From a virus (taxonomy: Duplodnaviria > Heunggongvirae > Uroviricota > Caudoviricetes), in the IMG/VR virus record IMGVR_UViG_3300009177_000029, positions 41,064 to 105,063 of that record: a stretch of 64,000 nt of DNA; one strand, given 5' to 3'. The position numbers were made by a program, and so were the translations under genes. Positions 53,512 through 64,000 of the stretch are shown piece after piece. How positions within the stretch are numbered: the first letter of the stretch is position 1; the number at the start of each line of letters is the position of its first letter. A model generated the notes under the pieces. It was not told where the DNA came from. It made no database searches and saw nothing but the letters and a program-made list of their open reading frames with translations.

Positions 53512-54218
53512 CCAGCTCCCTCAGCATCGAAGTTCATGACGGGCTTCACGTTGATGCCTGCTCCACCAGCATCAGTGCGGAAGAACTCATGTGATGACTG
53601 TCCCCTTTGCGAACGCGGAACCGTTGGTGCCGCTGGTCTATTTGCACGCTCTTCTGCAATCTGTTGTGCAACACGATTACGGCGCATAGACCTGTCTACT
53701 CCGAACGTTACCTTGTTCTGCTTATCCGCCTCCGTGAGTGGAGTCAACTCGGCGGCAGATACTTGTGCTACTACTTCTGCGGGCATGACCTCTTGTAGAG
53801 AGGATTCATACTTCGAGTCCTGAGTCACGTAGAGTTCAAGCTTACCTGGACCCGCTGTGATACGGTGCGTTGTGTCGCTAGAAACCACAACTTCGTCACC
53901 ATGTGTAAGGTGACGCTCATTCATCTTGCCAACAACAGTCTGACCTTCTTCTGGCTTGTCGAACGTCTGGTAGATACCGACGCCTGAAACAACACGATAG
54001 ACTCGTGTCTTCTTCTCGTGCTTCCACGTGGGCGTCATGCACTGAGGCATGACAGTCAAGAACTTCGTCTCAAAGCTCTTGGTCTTCGAACCTTCTACGA
54101 AATAGCCATAGTCGGTTTGTTCACGAGGTCCAACTACCATCGGTGGTGCTTGCAACTTCTCCATGATGCGAGAATGCTTGCGTAGCGTCTTTGGATCAAT
54201 CTGCTGTGGTCGTCTCAT
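53508..54218 (-). CDS. Cupin-fold protein
   Basis: LTVMPQCMTPTWKH..YRVVSGVG..LTHGDEVVVSSDTTHRI..LELYV. Confidence 0.65.
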   Translation of the reverse strand: MRRPQQIDPKTLRKHSRIMEKLQAPPMVVGPREQTDYGYFVEGSKTKSFETKFLTVMPQCMTPTWKHEKKTRVYRVVSGVGIYQTFDKPEEGQTVVGKMNERHLTHGDEVVVSSDTTHRITAGPGKLELYVTQDSKYESSLQEVMPAEVVAQVSAAELTPLTEADKQNKVTFGVDRSMRRNRVAQQIAEERANRPAAPTVPRSQRGQSSHEFFRTDAGGAGINVKPVMNFDAEGAG

Positions 54219-54540
54219 GTCCCTGCTCCTTCAATGCGTTGTATACGCGTCTCTGTTCAATCACCCACACTCTATAGCGCTTCTCCGTGCAGGAACATGC
54301 TGGTACTACTTTTTCACCGGAAGGTGTAGTCAGAGTTCCTAGGATACCACGTCCGTGGCACTTGGTGCAACTTCGCTTTGCCCAATACCGCGAATCTTTT
54401 GACGGAATGACGGTTTGAAGCCATGCAATGAACTTTTGCCGGTCTTCCTCATACTTCTGCTGTACTTTGTCTGCCACTGCGGGTGGAAGGTGGCGGAACA
54501 TATTTACTACGGCAGTATCTACCTTCTCAGTGCTGTTCAT
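54196..54540 (-). CDS. Zinc-finger hypothetical protein
   Basis: CTKCHGRG...CSC. Confidence 0.6.
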   Translation of the reverse strand: MNSTEKVDTAVVNMFRHLPPAVADKVQQKYEEDRQKFIAWLQTVIPSKDSRYWAKRSCTKCHGRGILGTLTTPSGEKVVPACSCTEKRYRVWVIEQRRVYNALKEQGHETTTAD

Positions 54541-54542
54541 GG

Positions 54543-54785
54543 TTACCTTCTACGTTTCGGCGATGTCGTACGTCCAACAGTCAGAAGATTGCTCGCACGG
54601 ATCCGTCCATTTCGAAGCGCATTCTTACGCGCTTCGACCTCTGCCCTATGTTGAGCTTCCCAAGCCTGTCTCGATTCTGGACAGTCACATACAGGCATCA
54701 TGCCAACAGGCATGTCTCCGGTGAAGTCGATCGTAGGCTTGATGTCCTTCTCACAATAGGGACACTTGAATACGGGTGAAATCAT
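54543..54785 (-). CDS. Small zinc-binding hypothetical protein
   Basis: CPYC...CDC. Confidence 0.6.
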   Translation of the reverse strand: MISPVFKCPYCEKDIKPTIDFTGDMPVGMMPVCDCPESRQAWEAQHRAEVEARKNALRNGRIRASNLLTVGRTTSPKRRR

Positions 54786-55075
54786 TTGCGGTACGCAGTA
54801 TCCGGCTGATTCAAACGAGGCTTGTAATAGGTTGGCGTGACCAGTCTGATAGCCGTGCCTTGAATGACGCCGTTGGGAAACCTTAGCTCCAAGCGGTAGT
54901 CCTTACCTATCTCCATCCGGTCGCTAATCGATCTGATCGGCTCATTGTTGAGGAACACAAAACCAGCGCGAACATAGTTTCTACTCTCCCTCGGAGAGTT
55001 TGTCAAACCTGAGAGGTCGAGAACACGCCAAACCTCGGCATGGGTTGCTATACGACTAGGCCAGACCACATTCAT
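54782..55075 (-). CDS. Stand-alone S4 RNA-binding domain protein
   Basis: VWRVLDLSGLTNSPRESRNYVRAGFVFLNNEPI matches the S4 (TyrRS C-terminal-like) pattern. Confidence 0.7.
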   Translation of the reverse strand: MNVVWPSRIATHAEVWRVLDLSGLTNSPRESRNYVRAGFVFLNNEPIRSISDRMEIGKDYRLELRFPNGVIQGTAIRLVTPTYYKPRLNQPDTAYRK

Positions 55076-55082
55076 GGCGTAT

Positions 55083-55091
55083 AGTGTAGCA
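55083..55091 (-). promoter_or_regulatory. Extended -10 promoter, candidate leaderless start
   Basis: TG-C-TACACT, 7 nt upstream of ATG at 55075. Confidence 0.45.
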
Positions 55092-55092
55092 C

Positions 55093-55130
55093 AAAAGCAA
55101 AAGGCCCGTAGCCATTGGAGCTACGAGCCT
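55093..55130 (-). terminator. Intrinsic terminator ending tRNA operon
   Basis: GGCTCGTAGC/GCTACGGGCC stem followed by TTTTGCTTTT. Confidence 0.75.
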
Positions 55131-55142
55131 TCGTGTTGGTAG

Positions 55143-55215
55143 ATTCGGGCGCGAGGAATCGAACCTCGATTGGTGGGGTCAAAGTCCACTGTCCTGCCTT
55201 TAGACGAAACCCGAA
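55143..55215 (-). tRNA. tRNA-Gln(TTG)
   Basis: Cloverleaf; loop CT-TTG-AC. Confidence 0.88.
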
Positions 55216-55288
55216 GCTGGTAGGGAGAATCGAACTCCCTCTATTCCTCGTTACGAATGAGGTGCCGCACCATTTCGGCATTACCAGC
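55216..55288 (-). tRNA. tRNA-Thr(CGT)
   Basis: Cloverleaf; loop TT-CGT-AA. Confidence 0.85.
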
Positions 55289-55337
55289 ATGTGGGTTGGT
55301 GTTACCCAACCCGAGCGATTATGTTAGCACACTGCGG

Positions 55338-56918
55338 TCAGAGTGCAACCTGATTGATCTTGTCCGTCCAGAAAGTTGCCGATCCGGTGTTGGACGAGAA
55401 CTCGTTGATTACTTCGAACACGTTGTCCGAGAAACCACCAACATTCAACGTATCCTTGCGGGTCGTTGCCTGCGTCGTGTTCTCGACCTGAATGTCGATG
55501 CAAACCAACTTTGCCTTCGGGTTTCGTGTCTTGAACACATCCCACTCAGACTGTAGGTTTCCGCCGTAGCGTGCTCCCCAGGTGTAGTTGTGTGCCCAGG
55601 ACTCGTTATCCGAGACCATGATGATGAGATCACCTGCCGCCTTCTCACGGTTCAACAATGCAACCGGAGCTGCACAGTTCGTTCCGCCACCAGGCGCCTT
55701 CATGATCTTCTGCGCGTTGGTCATGATGGAGTCGAACGGATTCAACTTCTCACGCCATGCGTCCGTGTGGAACAAGATGACCTCTGCGTCAGGGTTCTTG
55801 CGAAGAACCGATGCTGCCACGAGGGCTGCAACATCCTTGCAAGTCGTCTTCGACGTTGCACCCGCACGGTGACCCGTAACAGGTGAACCCATCGAACCCG
55901 ACACGTCAATCATCACGTAGACCTTGCCTTCGTACTTTGGAACGTTCGCCGTAGCGTGCTCCATTGCCTCTTGCAAAGCGTTCGTGATCTTCGCAGGCAC
56001 CGCAGGGTCTGCGTTCAAGTACGCGGTAAGAAGCTGATAAGGGAAAGCGCGAGCCTTCAAGACCTCATCCTTCGAACCGAGACGATGTGCGATGGTGTTG
56101 ACCATCTTCTGGTTCTTGAGAACGCCGTGACGCTCAAACGTGTTGAGGTTCATGCGCGTCATCATCCAGCCCGCCTTCTCTGCGATGGACGACCACTGCT
56201 TCTCAGTGAGAGGCAAGGACGTCAACATGCGGAAATCAACGTCTGGAACTTCCAGAGAAGTGTTCTTCTTGAAGTTCTCGTACTGCTGGATCACACCAGG
56301 AAGAGCTGCGGACTGTGCATCCGTCAACTTCTTGCCGATGAGGTACGCGTACATAGCCTCACGAGACGCACCTTCTGGCGATGGGTGGACCATCTTGATC
56401 ACGTCACCCAACGAAGGCTTGTCGCCTACGGAGTCACGGAACAAAGAACCGTCCTTACGACCGTTCAACCATGCCTGAATCGCCTTCTTCGGCGCAGAGC
56501 CAAGTGACTTACGTCCAACTGCACCGGAGCGCATGATCTGGACGAAGTTACGAAGCATCTTGCCATTGTCGATGACGCGAGGGAACGTCTTCTTGAAGAG
56601 GTCAGCATCACGCGTCGAAAGAACTGCAAGAAGGAATGCAGGCATGTCCTTCATGAAACCCTTGTCACGAGCGTAGATTGCCGTCTTCGCCAAGAACTCA
56701 GGGGAAACCTTCTGCGCGAGCGCAAGAGTTTCCTTCATCTGACGTTCTGCCGTCGAATAGAACGTGTCGTTGAACGTACCAGTGCATGCATACTGAGCTA
56801 GCGCAGCCTCATCAGCCATTGCGTAAGCCGTACCGCCTGCCTTGTTTACCGCGTCTGGCTTACGAGAAGCCTTGCGAACTGCGGATACACCACCACGAAA
56901 TAGATTTGCGTTTGCCAT
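55338..56918 (-). CDS. rsr: Ro60/Rsr TROVE-domain RNA-binding protein
   Basis: AGGTAY..EAALAQYACTGTFNDTFY, MKDMPAFLLA, WMMTRMNLNTFERHG, ARAFPYQL, vWA MIDVSGSM and SDNESW. Confidence 0.95.
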   Translation of the reverse strand: MANANLFRGGVSAVRKASRKPDAVNKAGGTAYAMADEAALAQYACTGTFNDTFYSTAERQMKETLALAQKVSPEFLAKTAIYARDKGFMKDMPAFLLAVLSTRDADLFKKTFPRVIDNGKMLRNFVQIMRSGAVGRKSLGSAPKKAIQAWLNGRKDGSLFRDSVGDKPSLGDVIKMVHPSPEGASREAMYAYLIGKKLTDAQSAALPGVIQQYENFKKNTSLEVPDVDFRMLTSLPLTEKQWSSIAEKAGWMMTRMNLNTFERHGVLKNQKMVNTIAHRLGSKDEVLKARAFPYQLLTAYLNADPAVPAKITNALQEAMEHATANVPKYEGKVYVMIDVSGSMGSPVTGHRAGATSKTTCKDVAALVAASVLRKNPDAEVILFHTDAWREKLNPFDSIMTNAQKIMKAPGGGTNCAAPVALLNREKAAGDLIIMVSDNESWAHNYTWGARYGGNLQSEWDVFKTRNPKAKLVCIDIQVENTTQATTRKDTLNVGGFSDNVFEVINEFSSNTGSATFWTDKINQVAL

Positions 56919-56986
56919 AGAAACATTCTCCTTTCATCCCGTTGGAGACAACCCAGCACTATGCTGGTATAGCTATTCAGTTTTAA

Positions 56987-57057
56987 GCTGCGTTCCGGAA
57001 TCGAACCGGATTCTCCGCGTTACAAGGGCGGCGCGTCACCATTTACGCTTATGCAGC
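56987..57057 (-). tRNA. tRNA-Thr(TGT)
   Basis: Cloverleaf; loop CT-TGT-AA. Confidence 0.85.
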
Positions 57058-57059
57058 AT

Positions 57060-57128
57060 GTTTCCAACTTTCCCGCCGACTTAGTACGACAGCAAGCATC
57101 TCTGACTGCGCGGGTGGAGTTGGCAAAC
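57060..57128 (-). ncRNA. Unclassified bulged long-stem RNA
   Basis: GTTT(G)CCAACT-CCA-CCCGC pairs with GCGGG-AA-AGTTGG-AAAC. Confidence 0.45.
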
Positions 57129-57157
57129 GTCCACAATCAGATAACCTGCTGTGTGAA

Positions 57158-57228
57158 GGTGCAAGTGGGAATCGGACCCACCTGTAACAGTTTTGCAGAC
57201 TGCATCGATCCCAGATCGATATTGCACC
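57158..57228 (-). tRNA. tRNA-Cys(GCA)
   Basis: Cloverleaf; loop CT-GCA-AA. Confidence 0.85.
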
Positions 57229-57230
57229 AG

Positions 57231-57316
57231 ATCCCGAGGGTGGACTTAAACCACCGACCTTTAGGCCAAATGTGTGCACAACAGCCTAACGCTCTATTTC
57301 TCTGAGCTACTCGGAA
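57231..57316 (-). tRNA. tRNA-Asn-like with 19-nt anticodon loop
   Basis: Acceptor, D and T arms intact; TTAGG/CCTAA stem encloses CTGTTGTGCACACATTTGG. Confidence 0.6.
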
Positions 57317-57317
57317 A

Positions 57318-57387
57318 GCGGCTAGCGGGAGTCGAACCCGCGCGTCAAGGTTGGAAGCCTCGCATGCTACCGTAACATCTCAACCGC
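57318..57387 (-). tRNA. tRNA-Gly(TCC)
   Basis: Cloverleaf; loop CT-TCC-AA. Confidence 0.88.
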
Positions 57388-57392
57388 GTAGT

Positions 57393-57462
57393 GCGGGTAC
57401 AGGGAATCGAACCCTGTCCGAATGGCTGGCAACCACTCATACTACCATTATACTTTACCCGC
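57393..57462 (-). tRNA. tRNA-Gly(GCC)
   Basis: Cloverleaf; loop TT-GCC-AG. Confidence 0.88.
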
Positions 57463-57504
57463 ATTGATTTCCCGGTGGGTTTCCTCAGGAATGAGGACCG
57501 GGAA

Positions 57505-57576
57505 TGATCCATCGGAGAATCGAACTCCGGTTCGCAGATTGAAAGCCTGCCGTCCTAACCACTAGACGAATGGACC
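57505..57576 (-). tRNA. tRNA-Glu(TTC)
   Basis: Cloverleaf; loop CT-TTC-AA. Confidence 0.9.
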
Positions 57577-57582
57577 GTTTGA

Positions 57583-57654
57583 TGACCCTACGGGGATTTG
57601 AACCCCGATTCTCAACGTGAGAGGCTGGCGTCCTAGCCATTAGACGATAGGGCC
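57583..57654 (-). tRNA. tRNA-Glu(CTC)
   Basis: Cloverleaf; loop CT-CTC-AC. Confidence 0.85.
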
Positions 57655-57668
57655 GTCTTGATTTCACC

Positions 57669-57697
57669 AGTATGACCTCAGGTGCGGAGGTTGTCAA
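57669..57697 (-). promoter_or_regulatory. Sigma70-type promoter
   Basis: TTGACA-N17-CATACT, 15 nt upstream of tRNA-Glu. Confidence 0.65.
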
Positions 57698-57701
57698 GGA
57701 A

Positions 57702-57927
57702 CTTCTCTATAGCCGCGGTTTTGTCCAAAATCGACTGACAGGGCCGATTTCTGTTTGTACATTCCTCTAGTGGCATCAACCCGGGCGTCAACATCCTGCT
57801 TTCCGACTCTGCCCTGTTTGACTTGCTCCCTCCATGGTACGGACGGCTTTTGGCCTCCCATGTCTAGCAGTGGAGCCGCGAACTTCCTCACATCCCAACA
57901 AGTGGGTTAGTGCGTACAACCGAGAAG
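57702..57927 (-). ncRNA. rnpB: Minimal RNase P RNA (catalytic domain, vestigial S domain, no P18)
   Basis: GAGGAAGTTCGCGG pairs with ACAAAACCGCGGC (P4 with bulged U); P1, P2, P3, P5, P6 pseudoknot, P7, P15-17 with L15 GGU, P19; GAGCAAG and CTAGAGGAATG conserved runs. Confidence 0.85.
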
Positions 57928-57933
57928 AAACCA

Positions 57934-58021
57934 CGGAGAGCAGAGGAATCGCACCCCATACGCTTTTACACGTACCCTCTGTTTAGCAAACAGTGCCGAC
58001 TACTAAGTCGAGTTACTCTCC
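57934..58021 (-). tRNA. tRNA-Ser(GCT)
   Basis: Long variable arm; loop TT-GCT-AA. Confidence 0.82.
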
Positions 58022-58028
58022 AAGAACT

Positions 58029-58616
58029 TCACACTGTAGCAGACTTGGAAGCCTGTGCAAGTTCGATCTTGCGAAGTTCCTTTTGCAGCTTTCCTTGGAT
58101 TTGCTTGGCAAATCGCTTCGTCGTACGGGACACCTTGTCCAAGCGCTTGAGAGCAAGACGCTTCTGTAGGTTACCCATGCGATCGATGAAAAGCTTTCCT
58201 TGAAGATGGTCCAACTCGTGTTGGAATGCCACAGACGTGATTCCAGAGAGCCAACGCTCGGTCACCAGGCCGCCTTCGTCTTGGTAGGTGACACGGACCG
58301 ACTCAGCGCGCTTGAGGCGTTCCAGGACGCCAGGGAAGCTGAGACAGCCCTCATTGGAGTCCACCTGGTCCGTGTGGACTGCCAGAATCTGCGGATTGAT
58401 GCACGTGATGTATTCCTGAGATTTGAAGTCACGAATCACAAACATCGAGTACAATGCACCAATCTGGTTGGCAGCGAGACCCTCAGCGCGAAATGCCTTC
58501 GCCGTATCTCTCAAGTCTGCTGACAACTGCGCGATACCCTCGTCAAAGATTTCAACCGGGTCAGTCTGCTGCTTGAGAATAGGATTCGGATAGTGAAGGA
58601 TTTCTTTGATTGCCAT
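58029..58616 (-). CDS. def: Peptide deformylase
   Basis: GLAANQIG, EGCLS, HELDHL motifs. Confidence 0.95.
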   Translation of the reverse strand: MAIKEILHYPNPILKQQTDPVEIFDEGIAQLSADLRDTAKAFRAEGLAANQIGALYSMFVIRDFKSQEYITCINPQILAVHTDQVDSNEGCLSFPGVLERLKRAESVRVTYQDEGGLVTERWLSGITSVAFQHELDHLQGKLFIDRMGNLQKRLALKRLDKVSRTTKRFAKQIQGKLQKELRKIELAQASKSATV

Positions 58617-58628
58617 GTTGTCTCCTCA

Positions 58629-58712
58629 CGGAAAGCAGTGGAATCGAACCACCACGGGCGAACCGTGCACCTGTTTTCGAGGCAGGGCTGCTCCCAGAGC
58701 AGGTTACTTTCC
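58629..58712 (-). tRNA. tRNA-Ser(CGA)
   Basis: Long variable arm; loop CT-CGA-AA. Confidence 0.85.
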
Positions 58713-58716
58713 AATA

Positions 58717-58801
58717 CGGAGAGCAGTGTACTCGAAACACCTACCCTTGCGGGTATCCGACGCTTTCCAGGCGTGGGTGGCACCTAGCCACTCTACTCTC
58801 C
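58717..58801 (-). tRNA. tRNA-Ser(GGA)
   Basis: Long variable arm; loop CT-GGA-AA. Confidence 0.85.
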
Positions 58802-58900
58802 AAATGGTGACTCACCTTCCGGTGGCCTAGCGCGTCACCAACGCTTGAACTGGACTTTGCAGGATTTGATCACGCCGGCATGTGGCTTTGCCTATCCATT

Positions 58901-58982
58901 CGGAAGAAATAGGAGTCGAACCCGACCTGTTACGGCACCCTGTTTTCAAGACAGGTATGGCACCACTGCCATCTTTTCTTCC
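58901..58982 (-). tRNA. tRNA-Ser(TGA)
   Basis: Long variable arm; loop CT-TGA-AA. Confidence 0.85.
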
Positions 58983-58990
58983 AGGATGTA

Positions 58991-59224
58991 TTATGTAGCA
59001 GACTTCCTTTCGGCACGCAATCGCTTTGTTAGCTTGTAGCGGACAATAGTGCGTGCCAAATGGTCAATCTCAGCCTCAGTCAACTCATGGGAAACATGAG
59101 CGTATTCGCCAAGCATGATCATCTTGATCATGTTCCAGAAAGAGAACCGAGTATACACCTCGATAGATGGAGACTCAGGTTCCTTCCTGTCAATGTAGTG
59201 GTGGTGAAAGCTACTCGTTGTCAT
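58991..59224 (-). CDS. Small hypothetical protein
   Basis: Start trimmed to MTTSSFHHHY, overlapping HNH stop. Confidence 0.5.
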   Translation of the reverse strand: MTTSSFHHHYIDRKEPESPSIEVYTRFSFWNMIKMIMLGEYAHVSHELTEAEIDHLARTIVRYKLTKRLRAERKSAT

Positions 59225-59762
59225 TTTCCAACTCCTGGTTCCAGTAGAGGTAGTCCCTCCAACAGTCAGGAGTGTTTGGAAGGGCAATGATGAGCTTCTG
59301 ACGTGGAGTCCAGTCAGGCTTTACCGGCTTCGAACGCAACACCATCCTTGCCTCAGCCGGAGTTCTGTCTGCCTTCTTACCGTTACACCTGATACAGCAT
59401 GTAGCGATGTTGTCCCAGACAGTCTTTCCGCCCTTGGAACGAGGAATCACGTGGTCATAGGTGAGGTTCTGTGTACCTGGCTTGTCACCACAGTATTGAC
59501 ACGTGTACTTGTCACGTGCAAATACGTTGATGCGTGAGAACTTCACACGATGCTTCTTGCCGTTGACGTACTCAAACAAGCGCACGACAGCGGGACACTT
59601 CATGGTGAGTGACATTGAAGTTAGCTCGAAGTCTTCATATTCCTTCAAGACCTCAACCTTGTCTTCGAACCAGAGGATGACTGCACGCTGCCACGAGATC
59701 ACGCGAAGTGGCTCGTAAGTAGAGTTCAACAGCAAAGTTCTGCGCTCTATGATGCTAGTCAT
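59211..59762 (-). CDS. HNH endonuclease
   Basis: TLLLNSTYEPL, PAVVRL, FSRINVFARDKYTCQYCG, TYDHVIPRSKGG, CCIRCNGKK; start MTSIIERR. Confidence 0.92.
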   Translation of the reverse strand: MTSIIERRTLLLNSTYEPLRVISWQRAVILWFEDKVEVLKEYEDFELTSMSLTMKCPAVVRLFEYVNGKKHRVKFSRINVFARDKYTCQYCGDKPGTQNLTYDHVIPRSKGGKTVWDNIATCCIRCNGKKADRTPAEARMVLRSKPVKPDWTPRQKLIIALPNTPDCWRDYLYWNQELENDNE

Positions 59763-59776
59763 TGGTTCCTCCTCAA

Positions 59777-59860
59777 TGGACCTGGTGGGAGTTGAACCCA
59801 CACGGTATCGCTACCACAACGTTTTAAGTGTCGTCTGTCTGCCTATTCCATCACAAGTCC
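59777..59860 (-). tRNA. tRNA-Leu(TAA)
   Basis: Long variable arm; loop CT-TAA-AA. Confidence 0.85.
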
Positions 59861-59863
59861 TCA

Positions 59864-59952
59864 TGGTGCGTACAGGAATCGAACCCATCTTCCGGTGTTT
59901 ATCAGACGTATCGGTTATAAACCGACCTGTGGCAACCAGCCACCTACGCACC
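59864..59952 (-). tRNA. tRNA-Ile(TAT) with long variable region
   Basis: GTCGG-TT-TAT-AA-CCGAT followed by ~21-nt variable region. Confidence 0.72.
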
Positions 59953-60144
59953 TCAATGTCTATTCAGACCACGCCACACCCAATATGCGATGTGATCCAA
60001 CACTTTTGGGTCAAGTTCGTAATCTTTGCAGTAGTTTAGCACTTCTTCGTCTTCTATCCACTCAAGCATAGACTTCCCGCCGTAGTGTGCCATGTACGCC
60101 CACTCAACTAACTTAGCCCTAGCCCTTGCTTGAGAAGTTTCCAC
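59953..60144 (-). CDS. Small hypothetical protein
   Basis: 63-aa ORF overlapping Pth2-like stop. Confidence 0.45.
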   Translation of the reverse strand: METSQARARAKLVEWAYMAHYGGKSMLEWIEDEEVLNYCKDYELDPKVLDHIAYWVWRGLNRH

Positions 60145-60554
60145 ACTGCCCCTACTCGGTGCTGCCCCGAGCTTCGCGGGTTTAGAAGCCGCTGGCCCTG
60201 CTGATGGCCCATAGAGGCTCGAAGTTCTTTCATCGCTAGCGGCAGATGACGTACCGCTTCCATTGCTTGATCTGTAGCCTCTATTGCGAGGGCTGTCAAG
60301 CTCATACCCATATCCGGCTCGCGGAACAGGGAATGTGCAATGCCGAGAGAGAACAGCTTTCCACTCAGTTCGTTGAGTTCTTTCTCGTCTGCAACAGACA
60401 GGAAACCCAACGTGTTGGATTCAGCATGCCACTCTCGGGCTTGATCTGGATTTTCGAACTTGAACTCAACCAAAGCATGCATGCCTTGCACTGCCTGCGC
60501 ACCCGGAGACAAATCTCGACGAGTTACGACATACAGCTTTTGATTAGTCCGCAT
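60108..60554 (-). CDS. Peptidyl-tRNA hydrolase 2-like protein
   Basis: KLYVVTRRDLSPGAQAVQGMHA...FREPDMG..LTALA. Confidence 0.75.
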   Translation of the reverse strand: MRTNQKLYVVTRRDLSPGAQAVQGMHALVEFKFENPDQAREWHAESNTLGFLSVADEKELNELSGKLFSLGIAHSLFREPDMGMSLTALAIEATDQAMEAVRHLPLAMKELRASMGHQQGQRLLNPRSSGQHRVGAVWKLLKQGLGLS

Positions 60555-60596
60555 GGTAGAAACCTACGCGCCACCAGTTTTTGTCTTTTCCATACA

Positions 60597-60679
60597 TGCC
60601 CACGGCGAGAGTCGAACTCGCACGCCTGTCAAGGCAACGGTTTTTGAGACCGTCATGTCTGCCATTCCATCACACGGGC
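60597..60679 (-). tRNA. tRNA-Leu(CAA)
   Basis: Loop CT-CAA-AA; long variable arm. Confidence 0.9.
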
Positions 60680-60722
60680 GTCACCTGGTAACCAGGTTAT
60701 CTTAGTCGCTTCGAACTAGGAG

Positions 60723-60794
60723 TGCCAATAGGAGGACTCGAACCTCACGAGCAGAGCCTTATGAGAGCCCGCTAAGCAACCTGCTTGTATTGAC
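60723..60794 (-). tRNA. tRNA-Met/Ile2(CAT), atypical D arm
   Basis: Loop CT-CAT-AA; normal T arm. Confidence 0.65.
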
Positions 60795-60796
60795 AT

Positions 60797-60870
60797 TGGG
60801 AGCGGCCCCGGAAGTCGCGTCCGGTTGTGAGAGCTTATGAGACTCCCCTGTCATCTCCAACTGCACCGCT
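60797..60870 (-). tRNA. tRNA-Met(CAT), atypical T loop
   Basis: Loop CT-CAT-AA; T loop CGCGACT; encoded CCA. Confidence 0.65.
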
Positions 60871-60871
60871 A

Positions 60872-60951
60872 TGGGCACGGGGAGAGTCGAACTCCCACGC
60901 TATTCGCGCCAGATTCTTAGTCTGGTGTGTCTGCCATTCCACCACGCGCCC
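60872..60951 (-). tRNA. tRNA-Leu(AAG)
   Basis: CCAGA-CT-AAG-AA-TCTGG; Leu-type D loop and variable arm. Confidence 0.85.
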
Positions 60952-60955
60952 GTTA

Positions 60956-61037
60956 TGCCGAAGAAAGGAGTCGAACCTTCATGTACGAAGTACGGCGGCT
61001 TCTAAGACCGCTGTGTCTGCCATTCCACCACTCCGGC
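60956..61037 (-). tRNA. tRNA-Leu(TAG)
   Basis: Loop CT-TAG-AA; long variable arm. Confidence 0.9.
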
Positions 61038-61043
61038 ATTGTA

Positions 61044-61117
61044 TGCACCACCAGGGTATCGCGCCCTGCATTTGACGGTGTGTAAAACCGTTCTCGTCGC
61101 TTGCTGAGTCGTAGTGC
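61044..61117 (-). tRNA. tRNA-Val(TAC), atypical T loop
   Basis: ACGGT-TT-TAC-AC-ACCGT; T loop CGCGATA. Confidence 0.75.
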
Positions 61118-61141
61118 GTTGAGAATAGGATCTTTGATTAG

Positions 61142-61214
61142 CCTCTTCGGTGAGATTTGAACTCACACCACCCGCCTTAGGAGTGCGGTACACTATCCGT
61201 TATGCTACGAAGAG
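61142..61214 (-). tRNA. tRNA-Arg(CCT)
   Basis: Loop CT-CCT-AA. Confidence 0.88.
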
Positions 61215-61218
61215 ATTA

Positions 61219-61291
61219 CGCTCCTACTAGGATTCGAACCCAGATCGCAGCGCTTAGAAGGCGCGCACACTATCCATTGTGCTATAGAAGC
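61219..61291 (-). tRNA. tRNA-Arg(TCT)
   Basis: Loop CT-TCT-AA. Confidence 0.88.
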
Positions 61292-61296
61292 AGTCA

Positions 61297-61368
61297 CGTA
61301 CCCGGCAGGAATCGAACCCGCATTCGGACGTTCGTAGCGTCAGAGTCTATCCGTTGACGTACAGGTAC
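61297..61368 (-). tRNA. tRNA-Arg(ACG)
   Basis: Loop CT-ACG-AA. Confidence 0.88.
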
Positions 61369-61374
61369 ATTGGT

Positions 61375-61436
61375 GGTGACGAAAGTGATCGTGAAGGTTT
61401 GATCTTGAAATGATGTATTCACGGTCGGCATTCACC
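61375..61436 (-). ncRNA. Handle-family RNA copy A (candidate Y-like RNA)
   Basis: GGTGA-ATGCC-GACCGTGAA-TACATC...TTCACGATC-ACTTTCG-TCACC, followed by ACCA. Confidence 0.7.
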
Positions 61437-61438
61437 GA

Positions 61439-61510
61439 AGCTGGTACAGGAACTTGCATCCTGATCACATCCATACCAAGGAAGTGTGTCTCTATTTACA
61501 CCTTACCAGC
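61439..61510 (-). tRNA. tRNA-Thr(GGT)
   Basis: Loop TT-GGT-AT; T loop TGCAAGT. Confidence 0.82.
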
Positions 61511-61513
61511 GAT

Positions 61514-61596
61514 TGGTCAGTCGGACGGGATTTCCACCCGTAAACTCTATGTTCTAGGCATAGTGTCTTTGCCATTGCCAGTCTCGCGACCGACTA
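61514..61596 (-). tRNA. Atypical tRNA-like gene (TAG loop, C33, enlarged D region)
   Basis: Acceptor TAGTCGG/CCGACTG + A + CCA; CTATG-CCTAGAA-CATAG; T loop TGGAAAT. Confidence 0.5.
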
Positions 61597-61614
61597 ACTT
61601 AGACTACCGGCTGA

Positions 61615-61685
61615 TGGACCGCTAGGGAGTCGAACCCTATCTTTCACGGTGCAAGCGTAACGTATTCCCGTCCTACTCGCGGCCC
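61615..61685 (-). tRNA. tRNA-Ala(TGC)
   Basis: Loop CT-TGC-AC; G3-U70. Confidence 0.88.
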
Positions 61686-61691
61686 ATTGTT

Positions 61692-61719
61692 ATGGTAACA
61701 CACCGTAGTGCGTTGTCAA
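61692..61719 (-). promoter_or_regulatory. Sigma70-type promoter
   Basis: TTGACA-N16(TGn)-TACCAT. Confidence 0.6.
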
Positions 61720-61720
61720 G

Positions 61721-61792
61721 CACGCTAGGAAGGATTCGAACCCTCTTGACGCCGGTTTTGGAGGCCAGCCGCTCTCCCAGGAGCACTAACGT
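61721..61792 (-). tRNA. tRNA-Trp(CCA)
   Basis: Loop CT-CCA-AA. Confidence 0.85.
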
Positions 61793-61793
61793 A

Positions 61794-61894
61794 TGGTCTT
61801 GAGTTTCTACTCCCTCAGAGCCTCCCACCCTCCCTCCTCCGTGTTTTCACACGGGATCAAGTCGGGCAGTCCGAGTATCCCATAGAACCTCAAG
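61794..61894 (-). ncRNA. Unclassified 101-nt RNA with terminal stem, 3' ACCA and G-tracts
   Basis: CTTGAG-G-TTCTA pairs with TAGAA-A-CTCAAG, then ACCA; CCGTGT-GAAA-ACACGG hairpin; GGGAGGGTGGG-N9-GGG. Confidence 0.5.
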
Positions 61895-61957
61895 TTTGAA
61901 GATGATCATGAGCATCTTCGACTCGCATCTGCACGGGTTGGTTACCGTGTACAAGAT

Positions 61958-62061
61958 TGGTGGAGCGTGCCGGATTCTAACCAGCTCTCTACCTTGCCCA
62001 TTGAAGGGCCAGGTTGGGACTTCGCCATACTTAGTATGTGCTTACATTACACCAACGCCCC
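61958..62061 (-). tRNA. tRNA-Ala-like RNA with ~23-nt insertion and expanded anticodon arm
   Basis: GGGGCGT/ACGCTCC-A-CCA (G3-U70); D arm GTGT/GCAC; T arm GCTGG-TTAGAAT-CCGGC. Confidence 0.6.
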
Positions 62062-62073
62062 GAAAACATGTGA

Positions 62074-62148
62074 GGGTGACTAGGGGGAATCGAACCCACC
62101 ACCGCCGGATTCACAGACCGGCATGCGGACCTCTACACTATAGTCACC
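62074..62148 (-). tRNA. tRNA-His(GTG)
   Basis: Loop CT-GTG-AA; 8-bp acceptor. Confidence 0.88.
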
Positions 62149-62154
62149 ATGAAG

Positions 62155-62227
62155 CGCGCCCAAGGAGGATCGAACTCCCCTGGCCTTGATTGACAATCAA
62201 GTGTACTCACCAGAATACTATGAGCGC
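62155..62227 (-). tRNA. tRNA-Asp(GTC)
   Basis: CTTGA-TT-GTC-AA-TCAAG. Confidence 0.88.
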
Positions 62228-62271
62228 ATTGTCCAGAGGCTCTCCGCAGGTTTCCCTGCGTGAGTCTGGTA

Positions 62272-62343
62272 TGGAGCTAGAAAGAGTCGAACTTTCGTAA
62301 CATCGTTATCAGCGATGTGTACTAACCGTTATACGATAGCTCC
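62272..62343 (-). tRNA. tRNA-Ile(GAT)
   Basis: CATCG-CT-GAT-AA-CGATG. Confidence 0.9.
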
Positions 62344-62356
62344 GTTAGAAATCTGA

Positions 62357-62429
62357 TGCCGCCGACTGGACTCGAACCAGCATTTGTGTCCGGTTAAAAG
62401 CCGGGTGCCAACCTTTAGGCGACGACGAC
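62357..62429 (-). tRNA. tRNA-Lys(TTT)
   Basis: Loop CT-TTT-AA. Confidence 0.85.
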
Positions 62430-62434
62430 AGAAA

Positions 62435-62506
62435 TCGGAGTAGGGTGAATCGAACACCCGACATCACCGCCCCAAACGGTGCGACATACCACTTGCCTAT
62501 ACTCCG
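62435..62506 (-). tRNA. tRNA-Pro(TGG)
   Basis: CACCG-TT-TGG-GG-CGGTG. Confidence 0.9.
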
Positions 62507-62507
62507 A

Positions 62508-62582
62508 TGGCAGATTCCCGTGGTCATACTCCACGATCTTTCCCCGTTGTCAGGGATGCTCTGAAACTTGAGCTAGGAACCT
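62508..62582 (-). tRNA. Degenerate tRNA-Val(GAC)-like gene
   Basis: Acceptor, D and T stems pair; anticodon arm misregistered; T loop AGTATGA; encoded CCA. Confidence 0.5.
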
Positions 62583-62588
62583 ATTAGT

Positions 62589-62719
62589 TAGTGACGAGAG
62601 TGACCGAGTTGTTTAGCCTAGCACTGGCAGCCCCGTTTGTTTAGAACTGATGGAGCTTACGGGAGTTGCACCCGCGTCGGATCATATTCAGTGATGTAAA
62701 CCCAATCGAGCATTCACTA
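62589..62719 (-). ncRNA. Handle-family RNA copy B with circularly permuted alanyl-tRNA/tmRNA-like domain (YrlA-like architecture)
   Basis: TAGTGA-ATGCTC-GATTGGGTT-TACATC...GAC-GCGGG-TGCAACT-CCCGT-AAGCTCC-[17-nt loop]-GGGGCTG-D-like hairpin...AACTCGGTC-ACTCTCG-TCACTA. Confidence 0.75.
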
Positions 62720-62802
62720 TGGTTGAGGAAGGAATCGAACCTACTGTTCCCGAAGGAGGCGGTTTTACAGACCGCTGCGCCGACCATTGACGCGTCTCAA
62801 CC
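62720..62802 (-). tRNA. tRNA-Tyr(GTA)
   Basis: GCGGT-CT-GTA-AA-ACCGC; long variable arm. Confidence 0.9.
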
Positions 62803-62807
62803 AGATA

Positions 62808-62895
62808 TCAGGGCGACAGGACTCGAACCTGCACGGCGATCTTGTGTTACTCGTCTCCAAAACGAGAGGGCTACCATCTACCCACCTACACCCTG
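62808..62895 (-). tRNA. tRNA-Pro(TGG) with expanded variable region
   Basis: CTCGT-TT-TGG-AG-ACGAG followed by ~17-nt variable region. Confidence 0.68.
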
Positions 62896-62898
62896 GTA

Positions 62899-62974
62899 TG
62901 CAGCTTCTTGGAGTCGAACCAAGTTCTACGGCTTTTCAGACCGTCGCGTATGTAACCCTACTCGCTCAAGCTGC
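62899..62974 (-). tRNA. tRNA-Phe(GAA)
   Basis: Loop CT-GAA-AA. Confidence 0.85.
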
Positions 62975-62981
62975 GTTTGTA

Positions 62982-63054
62982 CGATGGATGTAGGACTTGC
63001 ACCTACCTCGGGTAAGTTAACAGCTTACTGCTCAACTTCCTGAGCTAATCCACC
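62982..63054 (-). tRNA. tRNA-Asn(GTT)
   Basis: GTAAG-CT-GTT-AA-CTTAC. Confidence 0.85.
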
Positions 63055-63062
63055 ATAGATAG

Positions 63063-63137
63063 CTGGGGCAGAGGGAATCGAACCCCCGCACATACGGTTA
63101 ACAGCCGTACTGTCTTTCCAACGCGACATACACCCCA
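63063..63137 (-). tRNA. tRNA-Asn(GTT)
   Basis: TACGG-CT-GTT-AA-CCGTA. Confidence 0.85.
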
Positions 63138-63202
63138 ATGAGGTACGCCGAAGCGTACCGAAATCAATGACCCTATTCAGTTTTCAAATGGTCTTTCGAC
63201 CT

Positions 63203-63275
63203 ACTCCGACGCAAGGAATCGAACCTCGATTAACGGTTTCAGAGACCGCTGTCCTGCCTTTAGACGAAATCGGAA
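63203..63275 (-). tRNA. tRNA-Gln(CTG)
   Basis: Loop CT-CTG-AA. Confidence 0.88.
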
Positions 63276-63278
63276 TGT

Positions 63279-63360
63279 ATGTGACGAAAAATGTAGAGAG
63301 GTAGTGCGGGCTTGCGGCCCGCGTATCTAAACGCGATGTACTCCCCACGAGCATTCACAT
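63279..63360 (-). ncRNA. Handle-family RNA copy C (candidate Y-like RNA)
   Basis: ATGTGA-ATGCTC-GTGGGGAG-TACATC-[two hairpins]-CTCTCTAC-ATTTTTCG-TCACAT. Confidence 0.7.
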
Positions 63361-63406
63361 TGGTATCTCATTGTTTAGCGTTGTCGTGAGAATCGCGACA
63401 CTTTTA

Positions 63407-63479
63407 TGGAAGCGGAGGGAGTCGAACCCATCTATGTTTCGGTTAAGAGCCGAGTGCCTGGCCGGTTAGCTTCGCTTCC
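63407..63479 (-). tRNA. tRNA-Lys(CTT)
   Basis: Loop CT-CTT-AA. Confidence 0.88.
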
Positions 63480-63490
63480 GTTGAGTCTCT

Positions 63491-63519
63491 ATCGTGCTGT
63501 GCGTTCTGTCTGTTGTCAA
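63491..63519 (-). promoter_or_regulatory. Sigma70-type promoter
   Basis: TTGACA-N17-CACGAT, just upstream of tRNA-Lys. Confidence 0.45.
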
Positions 63520-63520
63520 G

Positions 63521-63684
63521 TCACTTTCTGCGTTGGGTCTCTCGAACGATTAAGGGCACCGAAGTTTCCTTGGTGCCCTTGTGAATCGATAGAGAATGCG
63601 TCTAGTTATCGATTACACGTCGGCACCTACCCAAATCTGGGCATAGTCGAACTTCGGGTGAATGCGATTAACTAGAGTGAGCAT
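63521..63684 (-). ncRNA. Unclassified ~165-nt twin-hairpin RNA
   Basis: CTAGTT/AACTAG-closed long stem and AAGGGCACC/GGTGCCCTT GAAA hairpin, between two promoters, no ORF. Confidence 0.45.
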
Positions 63685-63690
63685 CTCTTT

Positions 63691-63718
63691 ATCCTAGCAG
63701 GGCTTCGAACGATGTCAA
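63691..63718 (-). promoter_or_regulatory. Sigma70-type promoter
   Basis: TTGACA-N16(TGn)-TAGGAT. Confidence 0.65.
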
Positions 63719-63782
63719 CCGGAAAGTGAAGGTGCTAGCAGTTTTGCGGCTACTAGCACCCGGTATGAGCATCACAGCGCAC

Positions 63783-63810
63783 ATCCTATCACTTCCGAGC
63801 GGGCTGTCAA
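63783..63810 (-). promoter_or_regulatory. Sigma70-type promoter
   Basis: TTGACA-N16(TGn)-TAGGAT. Confidence 0.65.
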
Positions 63811-64000
63811 GTGAGATCGGAGGTCAGAGGAACAACTTGCTGCATCTTCACACGCGTGTTCTCGATCCTCTTCGCCACACGATCGAAACCCTTGGCGATA
63901 ACCACAGGCACATCCGATTCCTTCTCCATACGCTTCGACACGACACGCATCATGTCTGGTACACGAGCAAAGACCGGCTCACAGAGGAAGAGCACAGCAG
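63807..64000 (-). CDS. 3' end of a hypothetical protein (5'-truncated)
   Basis: Open frame from window edge to TGA at 63807. Confidence 0.55.
   Translation of the reverse strand, partial: AVLFLCEPVFARVPDMMRVVSKRMEKESDVPVVIAKGFDRVAKRIENTRVKMQQVVPLTSDLT

What the first reader, a model, noticed from the sequence alone, without database searches (positions are those of the whole stretch)
61375..63360. New three-member structured RNA family: conserved covarying handle with swappable internal domains (candidate non-canonical Y RNAs for the phage Ro60)
Seen: three spacers (61375-61436, 62589-62719, 63279-63360) share one architecture: a terminal stem with a GUGA/UCAC core and covarying outer pairs (G-C; UA/UA; AU/AU), an internal loop AUGC(U)C opposite AY(U)YUCG, an 8-9 bp stem of different sequence that still pairs in each copy, then an invariant UACAUC. 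The enclosed payloads differ: a short loop (A), a permuted tRNA-like domain (B) and two hairpins (C). Established: Y RNAs have a conserved Ro60-binding terminal stem plus a variable effector domain and sit near rsr. The motif differs from the GNCGAAN(0-1)G consensus I recall for YrlA. Inference: a modular Ro60-tethering RNA set, or adaptors for another protein.
Basis: partly seen in the sequence, partly recalled or inferred. Interest (0 to 1): 0.9.

Follow-up and report, generated by a model that had tools for sequence, protein, structure and literature searches.

The report
Three Y RNAs in a phage tRNA array
Three small structured RNAs sitting between the tRNA genes of a large soil phage are real, but they are not a new family. 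They are Y RNAs of the known YrlA/YrlB kind, the RNA partners of the Ro60 protein that the same phage encodes.

Summary
On the minus strand (the tRNA and Ro60 strand), 61436-61375 (A), 62719-62589 (B) and 63360-63279 (C) share a 5-6 bp closing stem, an AUGC(U)C / AYUYUCG internal loop, an 8-9 bp second stem, UACAUC, and then different inner domains. The motif occurs 3 times against 0 expected and nowhere else in the 169 kb genome.

The 'new family' reading fails. The handle is the Ro60-binding module plus anticodon-like stem of bacterial YrlA. It matches the Rfam YrlA consensus loop for loop, with the C-G pair of the CGAA motif swapped to U-A.

A model built from phage copies found 95 copies in large-phage contigs. 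It also found 278 copies, all on the rsr strand, beside 80 bacterial Ro60 genes. All five Rfam YrlA hits above threshold, in the ten of those loci scanned, coincide with them. A model built only from bacterial copies finds exactly A, C and B in 54000-64000 (46, 41 and 28 bits).

In contigs found without reference to Ro60, 16 of 25 carry a Ro60 gene, against 0 of 8 controls. B is the tRNA-like long form, A a short form, and C a variant with a GC hairpin.

Ro60 binding and expression are inferred, not shown. Verdict: new members of a known kind, of moderate interest.

The parts
61375..61436 (-). Y RNA A, short form (62 nt). Closing stem 61436-61432 with 61379-61375. 5' loop AUGCC 61431-61427. 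Second stem 61426-61418 with 61395-61387. UACAUC 61417-61412. 3' loop ACUUUCG 61386-61380. The inner part is only a 3-bp hairpin AUC/GAU with a 7-nt loop.
   Evidence: Sequence checked and fold. Scores 60.4 bits with R1 and 46.0 bits, E 1.5e-12, with R2, the model trained on bacterial copies only. A strain variant at 61424 turns the C.A mismatch into U-A.
62589..62719 (-). Y RNA B, long tRNA-like form (131 nt). Closing stem 62719-62714 with 62594-62589. 5' loop AUGCUC 62713-62708. Second stem 62707-62699 with 62610-62602. UACAUC 62698-62693. 3' loop ACUCUCG 62601-62595. T arm 62674-62660. Closed acceptor-like stem 62658-62651 with 62634-62628. D-like hairpin 62628-62616.
   Evidence: Sequence and fold. 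Scores 59.4 bits with R1 and 28.3 bits, E 4e-7, with R2 and filters off. Alignment with ten long forms from relatives shows the same T - acceptor-like - D order. The T arm and 3' acceptor strand weakly resemble the tmRNA and tymovirus TLS models.
63279..63360 (-). Y RNA C, variant form (82 nt). Closing stem 63360-63355 with 63284-63279. 5' loop AUGCUC 63354-63349. Second stem 63348-63341 with 63300-63293. UACAUC 63340-63335. 3' loop AUUUUUCG 63292-63285. GC-rich hairpin 63322-63306.
   Evidence: Sequence. Fold z-score -2.64. Scores 57.7 bits with R1 and 41.3 bits, E 4e-11, with R2.
55338..56918 (-). Ro60/Rsr gene (526 aa), the presumed protein partner. It lies on the same strand, 4.5 to 6.4 kb downstream of the three RNAs.
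   Evidence: Pfam vWA_Ro60 7.9e-18 and TROVE 9.3e-8. PDB matches: 2nvo D. radiodurans Rsr 1.3e-19, and 9l5y/9kop, TROVE domain-containing protein entries, 9.2e-17, which I take to be the phiLo Ro60 of PMC12135203. 47.7% identical to the Ro60 of Myxococcus phage Mx1.
61439..61510 (-). tRNA directly upstream of A (2-nt gap). ARAGORN missed it.
   Evidence: Rfam tRNA 42.7 bits.
61296..61369 (-). tRNA-Arg(acg), directly downstream of A (5-6 nt gap). Its 5' maturation would set the 3' end of A.
   Evidence: ARAGORN and Rfam.
62719..62803 (-). tRNA-Tyr with an encoded ACCA end. It abuts the first base of B.
63203..63275 (-). tRNA-Gln(ctg), 3 nt downstream of C.
63691..63810 (-). Two identical sigma-70-like promoter matches (TTGACA-16-TAGGAT with TG) upstream of the first tRNA of the array. 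They are a possible start of the unit that would carry the Y RNAs, tRNAs and Ro60.
   Evidence: Consensus scan only.
55100..55132 (-). Terminator-like hairpin (14 pairs, then a T run) after the last tRNAs downstream of Ro60.
   Evidence: Consensus scan only.

Best explanation
A, B and C are phage-encoded Y RNAs of the bacterial YrlA/YrlB kind.

Shown by computation:
- The closing stem and asymmetric internal loop are homologous to the Ro60-binding module of YrlA.
- The second stem is the anticodon-like stem of YrlA.
- The UA of UACAUC is the conserved UA at the start of the variable loop.

Inferred:
- The RNAs are transcribed with the tRNA array.
- They are cut out by the enzymes that mature the neighbouring tRNAs. 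RNase P at the 5' end of the next tRNA would set their 3' ends.
- They bind the outer face of the phage Ro60 ring through the handle.
- The inner domain decides what the particle does. B offers a tRNA-shaped elbow, as YrlA does. A and C offer small hairpins, as YrlB and Yrn2 do.
- By analogy with D. radiodurans, Salmonella and Thermus phage phiLo, the RNAs tether Ro60 to a host partner such as PNPase, or gate its cavity. This would reshape RNA turnover or repair during infection.
For: - Anatomy and chance: 3 motif matches against 0 expected, and MFE folds recover the handle.
- Same strand as a confirmed Ro60 gene, and upstream of it.
- The Mx1 homologue aligns over the full Rfam YrlA model, and the printed consensus shows the same handle.
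- Covariation: in 9 sequences, 95.7% of cells pair, 10 of 13 pairs show compensatory changes, and 0 of 500 shuffles reach this. In 95 sequences, 97.8% pair and 13 of 13 pairs are compensatory, against 35-60% paired in slid controls.
- A Ro60-blind pattern scan of IMG/VR followed by model R1 found 31 new contigs with elements. Of 25 tested, 16 carry a Ro60 39-54% identical to the window's, against 0 of 8 long control contigs; Fisher p = 0.003.
- In 80 bacterial Ro60 loci, R1 gives 278 hits, all on the rsr strand and mostly tandem right beside the gene.
- All five Rfam YrlA hits above threshold (75.9-83.9 bits), in the ten bacterial loci scanned, coincide with R1 hits.
- Model R2, trained only on bacterial hits, finds A (46.0 bits), C (41.3) and B (28.3), and nothing else significant in 54000-64000.
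- A natural variant restores a pair in A.
- Literature: phage Ro60 binds adjacent Y RNA-like RNAs and recruits PNPase (PMC12135203). Species usually carry one tRNA-like and one short Y RNA (PMC4201824).
Against: - There is no direct evidence of expression or of Ro60 binding for this phage.
- The Rfam YrlA model itself does not score A, B or C at all.
- The literal CGAA motif reads UGAA in all three copies. Mutating CGAA reduced binding in phiLo (PMC12135203), although that mutagenesis was not a compensated pair swap.
- The RNAs lie 4.5-6.4 kb from Ro60, beyond the 4 kb used by Chen et al. 2014.
- B's D-like hairpin lacks the GG of tRNA D loops, and its T loop is UGCAACU, so the tRNA-like fold is uncertain.
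- R2 derives from hits of R1, so the two models are not fully independent.
- Two contigs rated complete carry one element each but no Ro60.
Confidence: 0.82

Rival explanations
1. The shared handle is a processing or folding signal of the tRNA operon, for example a spacer module recognised by an RNase or by another phage protein. Its link to Ro60 would be only that both sit in the same RNA-metabolism island.
For: The three copies sit tightly between tRNAs. Many relatives also sit in tRNA arrays. Two apparently complete contigs have an element but no Ro60.
Against: In L007, and in most of the 80 bacterial loci, the elements flank Ro60 directly without a tRNA array. The handle is the part of YrlA assigned to Rsr binding (10.1101/312249, PMC4201824). 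Ro60 co-occurrence is 16 of 25 against 0 of 8.
Confidence: 0.07
2. The elements are decaying relics: duplicated Y RNA or tRNA-dimer remnants with no present function. The UGAA change would mark loss of Ro60 binding.
For: All three carry U instead of the C of CGAA. B's tRNA-like part is degenerate. In a related strain the B region is replaced by other sequence.
Against: The U is always paired with A, so the helix is kept. The same U-A state occurs in 26 of 95 family members. All 13 handle pairs are kept in three copies whose stems differ in sequence. UACAUC and both loops are conserved. A strain variant improves pairing.
Confidence: 0.06
3. This is a genuinely new RNA family, unrelated by descent to Y RNAs, that only resembles them.
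For: Rfam gives no YrlA hit for A, B or C. R1 finds nothing in the mycobacteriophage, Streptomyces, Vibrio and Thermus phage Ro60 loci.
Against: The handle agrees loop for loop with the Rfam YrlA consensus. R1 hits coincide with all five YrlA hits above threshold. The bacterial-only model R2 recovers all three. The accepted mycobacteriophage YrlA also fails Rfam's threshold, at 36 bits, so that model is narrow.
Confidence: 0.03

Closest known systems
YrlA (Rfam RF02553; S. Typhimurium and M. smegmatis YrlA; crystal structure 6cu1)
   Same: A closing stem carrying the Ro60-binding motif. An AUGCu loop opposite an AaAcUuG-type loop. A second (anticodon-like) stem, then a conserved UA. In B and the long forms of relatives, T arm, closed acceptor-like stem and D arm follow in permuted order. 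Encoded on the Ro60 strand near the gene.
   Different: The window's copies have U-A instead of C-G in the CGAA position, and UCG instead of UUG at the end of the 3' loop. B has a divergent T loop (UGCAACU) and a 3-bp D-like hairpin without GG. None reaches the Rfam score. The copies sit inside a tRNA array, 4.5-6.4 kb from Ro60.
YrlB (Salmonella, M. smegmatis) and Yrn2 (D. radiodurans): short second Y RNAs
   Same: A, and less clearly C, keep only the Ro60-binding handle plus a small hairpin or loop. This matches the 'long hairpin with small loop' class found beside the tRNA-like Y RNA in every species studied (PMC4201824).
   Different: YrlB had no recognisable homologues outside Salmonella (PMC4201824). 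Here the short forms share the handle, second stem and UACAUY with the long forms, and so can be found widely with one model.
Yrl1 and Yrl2 of Thermus phage phiLo with phiRo60 (PMC12135203)
   Same: A phage-encoded Ro60 with two or more Y RNA-like RNAs upstream on the same strand. Binding and a ternary complex with host PNPase were shown there. This is the functional precedent for a phage system.
   Different: My models find no match in the phiLo locus, and the Ro60 is only about 25% identical. phiLo's RNAs are not embedded in a tRNA array.
YrlA-like RNAs of mycobacteriophages (Chen et al. 2014) and of Streptomyces phages
   Same: A tRNA-like Y RNA next to a phage Ro60. In Streptomyces phage Blueeyedbeauty it also lies between tRNA genes (L012:3838-3902).
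   Different: Their handles differ in sequence and are not detected by R1 or R2. Rfam matches only their tRNA-like core (34-36 bits).

Membership tests
Bacterial/phage Y RNA (YrlA/YrlB kind, Chen et al. 2014) | Encoded near a Ro60/Rsr gene on the same strand | tested here: met
   Same strand, 4.5, 5.7 and 6.4 kb upstream of the Ro60 ORF. This exceeds the 4 kb working cut-off of PMC4201824. Homologous copies in relatives lie 0.02-0.3 kb from Ro60 (L005, L007), and all 278 bacterial hits are on the rsr strand.
Bacterial/phage Y RNA (YrlA/YrlB kind, Chen et al. 2014) | 5'-strand motif GNCGAAN0-1G (CGAA core) in the Ro60-binding stem | tested here: inconclusive
   The window copies read GGUGAAUG, AGUGAAUG and UGUGAAUG. 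The C is U and its partner G is A, so the pair is kept. In 95 aligned phage members this pair is C-G in 59, U-A in 26, A-U in 5 and G-C in 3. Relatives carry the literal motif (GCCGAAUG, GGCGAAUG). Whether Ro60 accepts UGAA is untested.
Bacterial/phage Y RNA (YrlA/YrlB kind, Chen et al. 2014) | The 5' and 3' ends form a long stem interrupted by an internal loop | tested here: met
   MFE folds. Covariation: 13 of 13 pairs compensatory and 97.8% of cells paired.
Bacterial/phage Y RNA (YrlA/YrlB kind, Chen et al. 2014) | Homology to RNAs adjacent to bacterial rsr, including curated YrlA | tested here: met
   R2, trained only on rsr-adjacent bacterial RNAs, scores A 46.0, C 41.3 and B 28.3 bits. 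The phage-trained model's hits coincide with all five Rfam YrlA hits of 75.9-83.9 bits.
Bacterial/phage Y RNA (YrlA/YrlB kind, Chen et al. 2014) | Physical association with Ro60 | not testable with these tools
   Needs RIP or EMSA.
Rfam YrlA RF02553 (tRNA-like Y RNA), for element B | Score at or above the gathering threshold (69 bits) | tested here: not met
   No YrlA match for B even at E <= 10 on a 146-nt stretch, and none in the whole genome. The Mx1 homologue scores 18.5 bits and the accepted mycobacteriophage YrlA 36 bits. So I file B under the broader Y RNA kind, not as an RF02553 hit.
Rfam YrlA RF02553 (tRNA-like Y RNA), for element B | Permuted tRNA-like module: T arm, closed acceptor-like stem, UA, D arm with conserved elbow nucleotides | tested here: inconclusive
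   The order T arm, acceptor-like stem, D-like hairpin is present and aligns with ten long forms from relatives. However, the T loop is UGCAACU, the UA linker is absent, and the D-like loop has no GG. No 3-D test was possible.
tmRNA / permuted tmRNA, for the payload of B | Score at threshold, and a tag reading frame | tested here: not met
   tmRNA_permuted scores 15.6 bits against a threshold of 47, and tmRNA 7.9 bits. Only the T arm and 3' acceptor strand match. ARAGORN finds no tmRNA.

The most novel reading that the evidence does not exclude
One handle model (closing stem, AUGC loop, second stem, UACAUY) shows that Ro60 genes of this clade, in large phages and in soil bacteria (Acidobacteriota, Verrucomicrobiota, Planctomycetota, Myxococcota), usually come with arrays of 3 to about 11 Y RNAs. 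These share the Ro60-binding module but carry very different inner domains (14-182 nt). Short 'headless' forms outnumber the tRNA-like ones. This would make Y RNAs a swappable adaptor library for one Ro60 ring. It would give the elusive YrlB-type RNAs a general signature. The phage copies, set between tRNAs, would fit the proposed origin of Y RNAs from tRNA dimers.
Probability: 0.45. Interest if true: 0.55.

Novelty: new member of a known kind. Interest (0 to 1): 0.4.

Why it matters
For this phage, the finding explains three unannotated spacers and links them to its Ro60 gene. The phage brings its own Ro60 particle, protein plus at least three RNAs, made together with some 35 tRNAs. For the field, the value lies less in the three RNAs than in what they led to:

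- A handle-only model finds long and short Y RNAs alike, which Rfam's YrlA model and standard annotation miss. In Mx1 one copy is annotated as a protein gene.
- Multi-copy sets beside Ro60 are common in large phages and in several soil phyla.
- Myxococcus phage Mx1, which can be grown, carries two homologues and would allow direct tests of what a phage Ro60-Y RNA particle does.

Tried and rejected
- Megablast of 55000-64000 against GenBank phages gave no match. Distant blastn of the array found only tRNA-sized matches.
- Rfam on 54000-64000 at E <= 1 gave no Y RNA hit on A, B or C. The one YrlA line (57259-57361, 23.4 bits) lies on two tRNAs. Rfam on B alone gave only weak tmRNA and tymovirus TLS T-arm matches. 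RF02553 on the whole genome hit only tRNA places.
- Rfam at gathering level on Mx1 and four IMG/VR relatives gave no YrlA.
- R1 and R2 found nothing in the Myrna, Cali, Blueeyedbeauty, Vibrio SRILMA and phiLo Ro60 loci, nor in L008. The models do not reach those more distant Y RNAs.
- My first strict descriptor missed the L007 copies, whose GA before AUGC reads AG.
- Expression: no RNA holder is listed among the public runs. The four DNA runs laid are contigs only and say nothing about transcripts.
- A hairpin directly after UAC (AUC...GAU) is only modestly enriched: 66 of 95 against about 53 expected. I did not put it into the models.
- An alternative hairpin in C (CGCG...CGCG) is broken by strain variants at 63333/63334 without compensation, so I rejected it. 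A variant at 63307 also puts a C.A mismatch into C's GC hairpin.
- Two reviews on bacterial Y RNAs (PMC10870794, PMC6047535) are not held. What they say about copy number could not be checked.
- No structure prediction or complex prediction was run. The tools fold proteins, not the RNA-protein pair in question.
Full report
**What is there.** All tRNA genes of the window lie on the minus strand (32 by ARAGORN; several more by Rfam). The three spacers must be read on that strand.
- a 5-6 bp closing stem with the core GUGA/UCAC and different outer pairs;
- an internal loop AUGCC or AUGCUC opposite ACUUUCG, ACUCUCG or AUUUUUCG;
- a second stem of 8-9 pairs whose sequence differs in each copy;
- the hexamer UACAUC;
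- an inner part that differs completely between copies.

The combined motif occurs three times on the minus strand against none in 100 shuffles. It occurs nowhere else in the 169 kb phage genome, which has direct terminal repeats and is rated complete. Unconstrained folding returns the handle for all three.

**Context.** The ORF 55338-56918 on the same strand is a Ro60/Rsr protein:
- Pfam vWA_Ro60 7.9e-18 and TROVE 9.3e-8;
- D. radiodurans Rsr 2nvo at 1.3e-19, and two TROVE domain-containing protein entries (9l5y, 9kop) at 9.2e-17, which I take to be the Thermus phage phiLo Ro60 of PMC12135203.

The closest named phage is Myxococcus phage Mx1, with Ro60 47.7% identical and the same order of tail sheath, tRNA array and Ro60.

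A sits 2 nt after one tRNA and 5-6 nt before the next. B starts directly after the encoded ACCA of tRNA-Tyr. C ends 3 nt before tRNA-Gln. Promoter-like sites lie upstream of the array (63810-63691), and a strong terminator-like hairpin lies after the tRNAs that follow Ro60 (55132-55100). Both are consensus matches only.

**The handle is the YrlA handle.** Mx1 has a copy right after its tRNA-Ile (L001:8607-8710), annotated there as a small protein gene. Rfam's YrlA model aligns to it over its full length, at 18.5 bits, far below threshold. The printed consensus is what matters. It shows stem cggCga, loop AUGCu, a second stem, CUA, and on the return side a loop AaAcUuG and stem ucGccg. That is the window's handle loop for loop.

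The motif GNCGAAN0-1G of Chen et al. 2014 (PMC4201824) reads (G/A/U)GUGAAUG here. It is the same motif with C changed to U, and the partner G is changed to A.

According to the YrlA crystal-structure paper (10.1101/312249):
- the closing stem and loop form the Rsr/Ro60-binding module;
- the second stem corresponds to the anticodon stem;
- the conserved UA lies at the start of the variable loop.

**Relatives and covariation.** A search with the Ro60 protein in IMG/VR gave five related contigs. A descriptor scan found handle RNAs in them and a second one in Mx1, most with the literal CGAA.

Nine sequences were aligned. For the 13 handle pairs, 95.7% of cells pair, 10 pairs show changes on both sides, and 0 of 500 shuffles reach this. 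Slid controls pair at 33-55%.

The covariance model R1 built from them gave these results:
- it finds only A, B and C in the 64 kb window;
- it finds three new tandem copies directly after the Ro60 gene of L007, where even the otherwise constant G-C and A-U pairs are swapped.

**Test of Ro60 linkage that does not start from Ro60.** I scanned IMG/VR with a pattern of the short canonical form. Of the 91 stretches returned, R1 confirmed elements in 31 new contigs, often many per locus: ten or eleven in L089, eight each in L025 and L097 at E <= 0.001 (nine in L025 at E <= 0.01).
- Of 25 such contigs tested, 16 encode a Ro60 39-54% identical to the window's. Most of those without one are fragments.
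- Of 8 long contigs whose pattern match R1 rejected, none has one; one shows a 17.9-bit trace. Fisher p = 0.003.
- In the 95-member alignment, 97.8% of cells pair and all 13 pairs show compensatory change. The CGAA pair is C-G in 59 and U-A in 26, so the window's variant is common. One G.U pair in the second stem is conserved in 68 of 95.
- Inner parts range from 14 to 182 nt.

**Bridge to curated Y RNAs.** A profile of the phage Ro60s found at least 572 bacterial loci. The best 80 are 49-56% identical and come from Acidobacteriota, Verrucomicrobiota, Planctomycetota and Myxococcota, including complete chromosomes and isolates.
- R1 gives 278 hits there, every one on the rsr strand. Most are tandem, within about 1.5 kb after the gene or just before it.
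- Rfam's YrlA passes its threshold five times in the ten loci scanned (75.9-83.9 bits, for example Luteolibacter marinus L185:7815-7937). Each of these coincides with an R1 hit.
- A second model, R2, was trained only on 60 bacterial hits. With filters off it finds A (46.0 bits), C (41.3) and B (28.3), and nothing else significant in 54000-64000. R2 descends from R1's hits, so it is not fully independent, but its training sequences are all bacterial.

**The three forms.**
- B aligns with ten long forms of relatives. Those carry a clear T arm (GGUUCGAAUCC), a closed 6-7 bp acceptor-like stem, UA, and a D arm (AGCUCA..GGYAGAGC), which is the permuted tRNA layout of YrlA. B keeps the order but has the T loop UGCAACU and a 3-bp D-like hairpin without GG.
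- A is a short form, like many relatives of 55-70 nt, and corresponds to the YrlB/Yrn2 class.
- C adds a GC-rich hairpin and has no T loop.

This matches the rule in PMC4201824 that a species has one tRNA-like Y RNA and at least one short one.

**Strain variants.** In contigs of related soil phages, a change at 61424 turns the single C.A mismatch in A's second stem into U-A. Changes in C fall in a loop and, once, in the GC hairpin. In one strain the stretch that holds B is replaced.

**Mechanism.**
- Shown: homology of the handle to the Ro60-binding module, conservation by covariation, and genomic linkage to Ro60 in phages and bacteria.
- Inferred: co-transcription with the tRNAs; release by tRNA-processing enzymes; binding to the phage Ro60; and use of the inner domain to tether a partner or gate the ring, as in D. 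radiodurans and Salmonella (as summarised in PMC4201824) and in phage phiLo (PMC12135203).

**Comparison and verdict.** Phage Ro60 genes with adjacent Y RNA-like RNAs are established (22 phages in PMC4201824; binding shown for phiLo). The three RNAs are therefore new members of a known kind, not a new family. They fail the Rfam YrlA score, as does an accepted mycobacteriophage YrlA, so the curated model is narrow.

Three things go somewhat beyond the literature I could read:
- the placement between tRNAs;
- the U-A form of the CGAA pair;
- the finding that one handle model recovers long and short forms in multi-copy sets across large phages and soil bacteria.

Interest is moderate at 0.4.

Noticed in passing
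L001:8610-8732 (Mx1, OR576727.2 45524-45646): The annotated 'hypothetical protein' WNM70101.1 overlaps the Y RNA copy L001:8607-8710. It is probably a false gene call.
   Followed up: partly
window 61439-61510, 57231-57316, 57934-58022, 58902-58982 (minus): Rfam's tRNA or tRNA-Sec models match here (36-47 bits), where ARAGORN reports nothing. The array holds more tRNA-like genes than the 32 listed.
   Followed up: no
L047 (IMGVR_UViG_3300033070_000722) 3334-3399 and L094 (IMGVR_UViG_3300019883_000003) 414-476: Two contigs of about 50 kb, rated 100% complete, each carry one good handle RNA (47 and 40 bits) but no Ro60 gene. They may be orphan Y RNAs that use a host Ro60, or the completeness estimate may be wrong.
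   Followed up: partly
window 62533-62725: In contigs of run X2 (a related soil phage) the sequence between tRNA-Pro and tRNA-Tyr, which includes B, is replaced by unrelated letters. The Y RNA slots may be exchanged between strains.
   Followed up: no
A2 members; window 61414-61402, 62695-62681: The small hairpin after UAC often has a 7-nt loop of the form YUNNNAA (for example CUGUUAA, CUGUAAA, AUUUCAA). This is the shape of an anticodon loop (U33, purine 37), although it lies at the variable-arm position.
   Followed up: partly
window 61374-61371, 62723-62720, 63364-63361: ACCA stands directly after the closing stem of A and directly before the first base of B and of C. These may be tRNA-like ends that guide processing.
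   Followed up: no
L001 about 6805, 7337, 7739, 9249, 14824, 15325: In Mx1 a motif close to AGATCAACGCAGTA recurs just after several tRNA-like genes. Its meaning is unknown.
   Followed up: no
window 57702-57927: Another first-stage note (e1-5397557) proposes a minimal RNase P RNA here. The Rfam scan of 54000-64000 at E <= 1 gave no RNase P family match. This does not exclude a very reduced form.
   Followed up: partly
L110, L114, L153 (contigs binned as Acidobacteria and Polyangia MAGs): These 'bacterial' Ro60 loci carry dense tRNA arrays with interspersed handle RNAs, like the window. They are probably phage or prophage DNA inside the bins.
   Followed up: no
G011:C1:152693-154212; G004:C1:78403-79998; G008:C1:88571-90217: In three related phage contigs the Ro60 match is in two pieces. 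One is split by a TAA stop. The other two carry an insertion of about 20-25 codons within one open frame.
   Followed up: no
window 63691-63810 (minus): Two identical promoter-like sites (TTGACA-16-TAGGAT with TG) lie 92 bp apart upstream of the tRNA array, inside a duplicated stretch.
   Followed up: no
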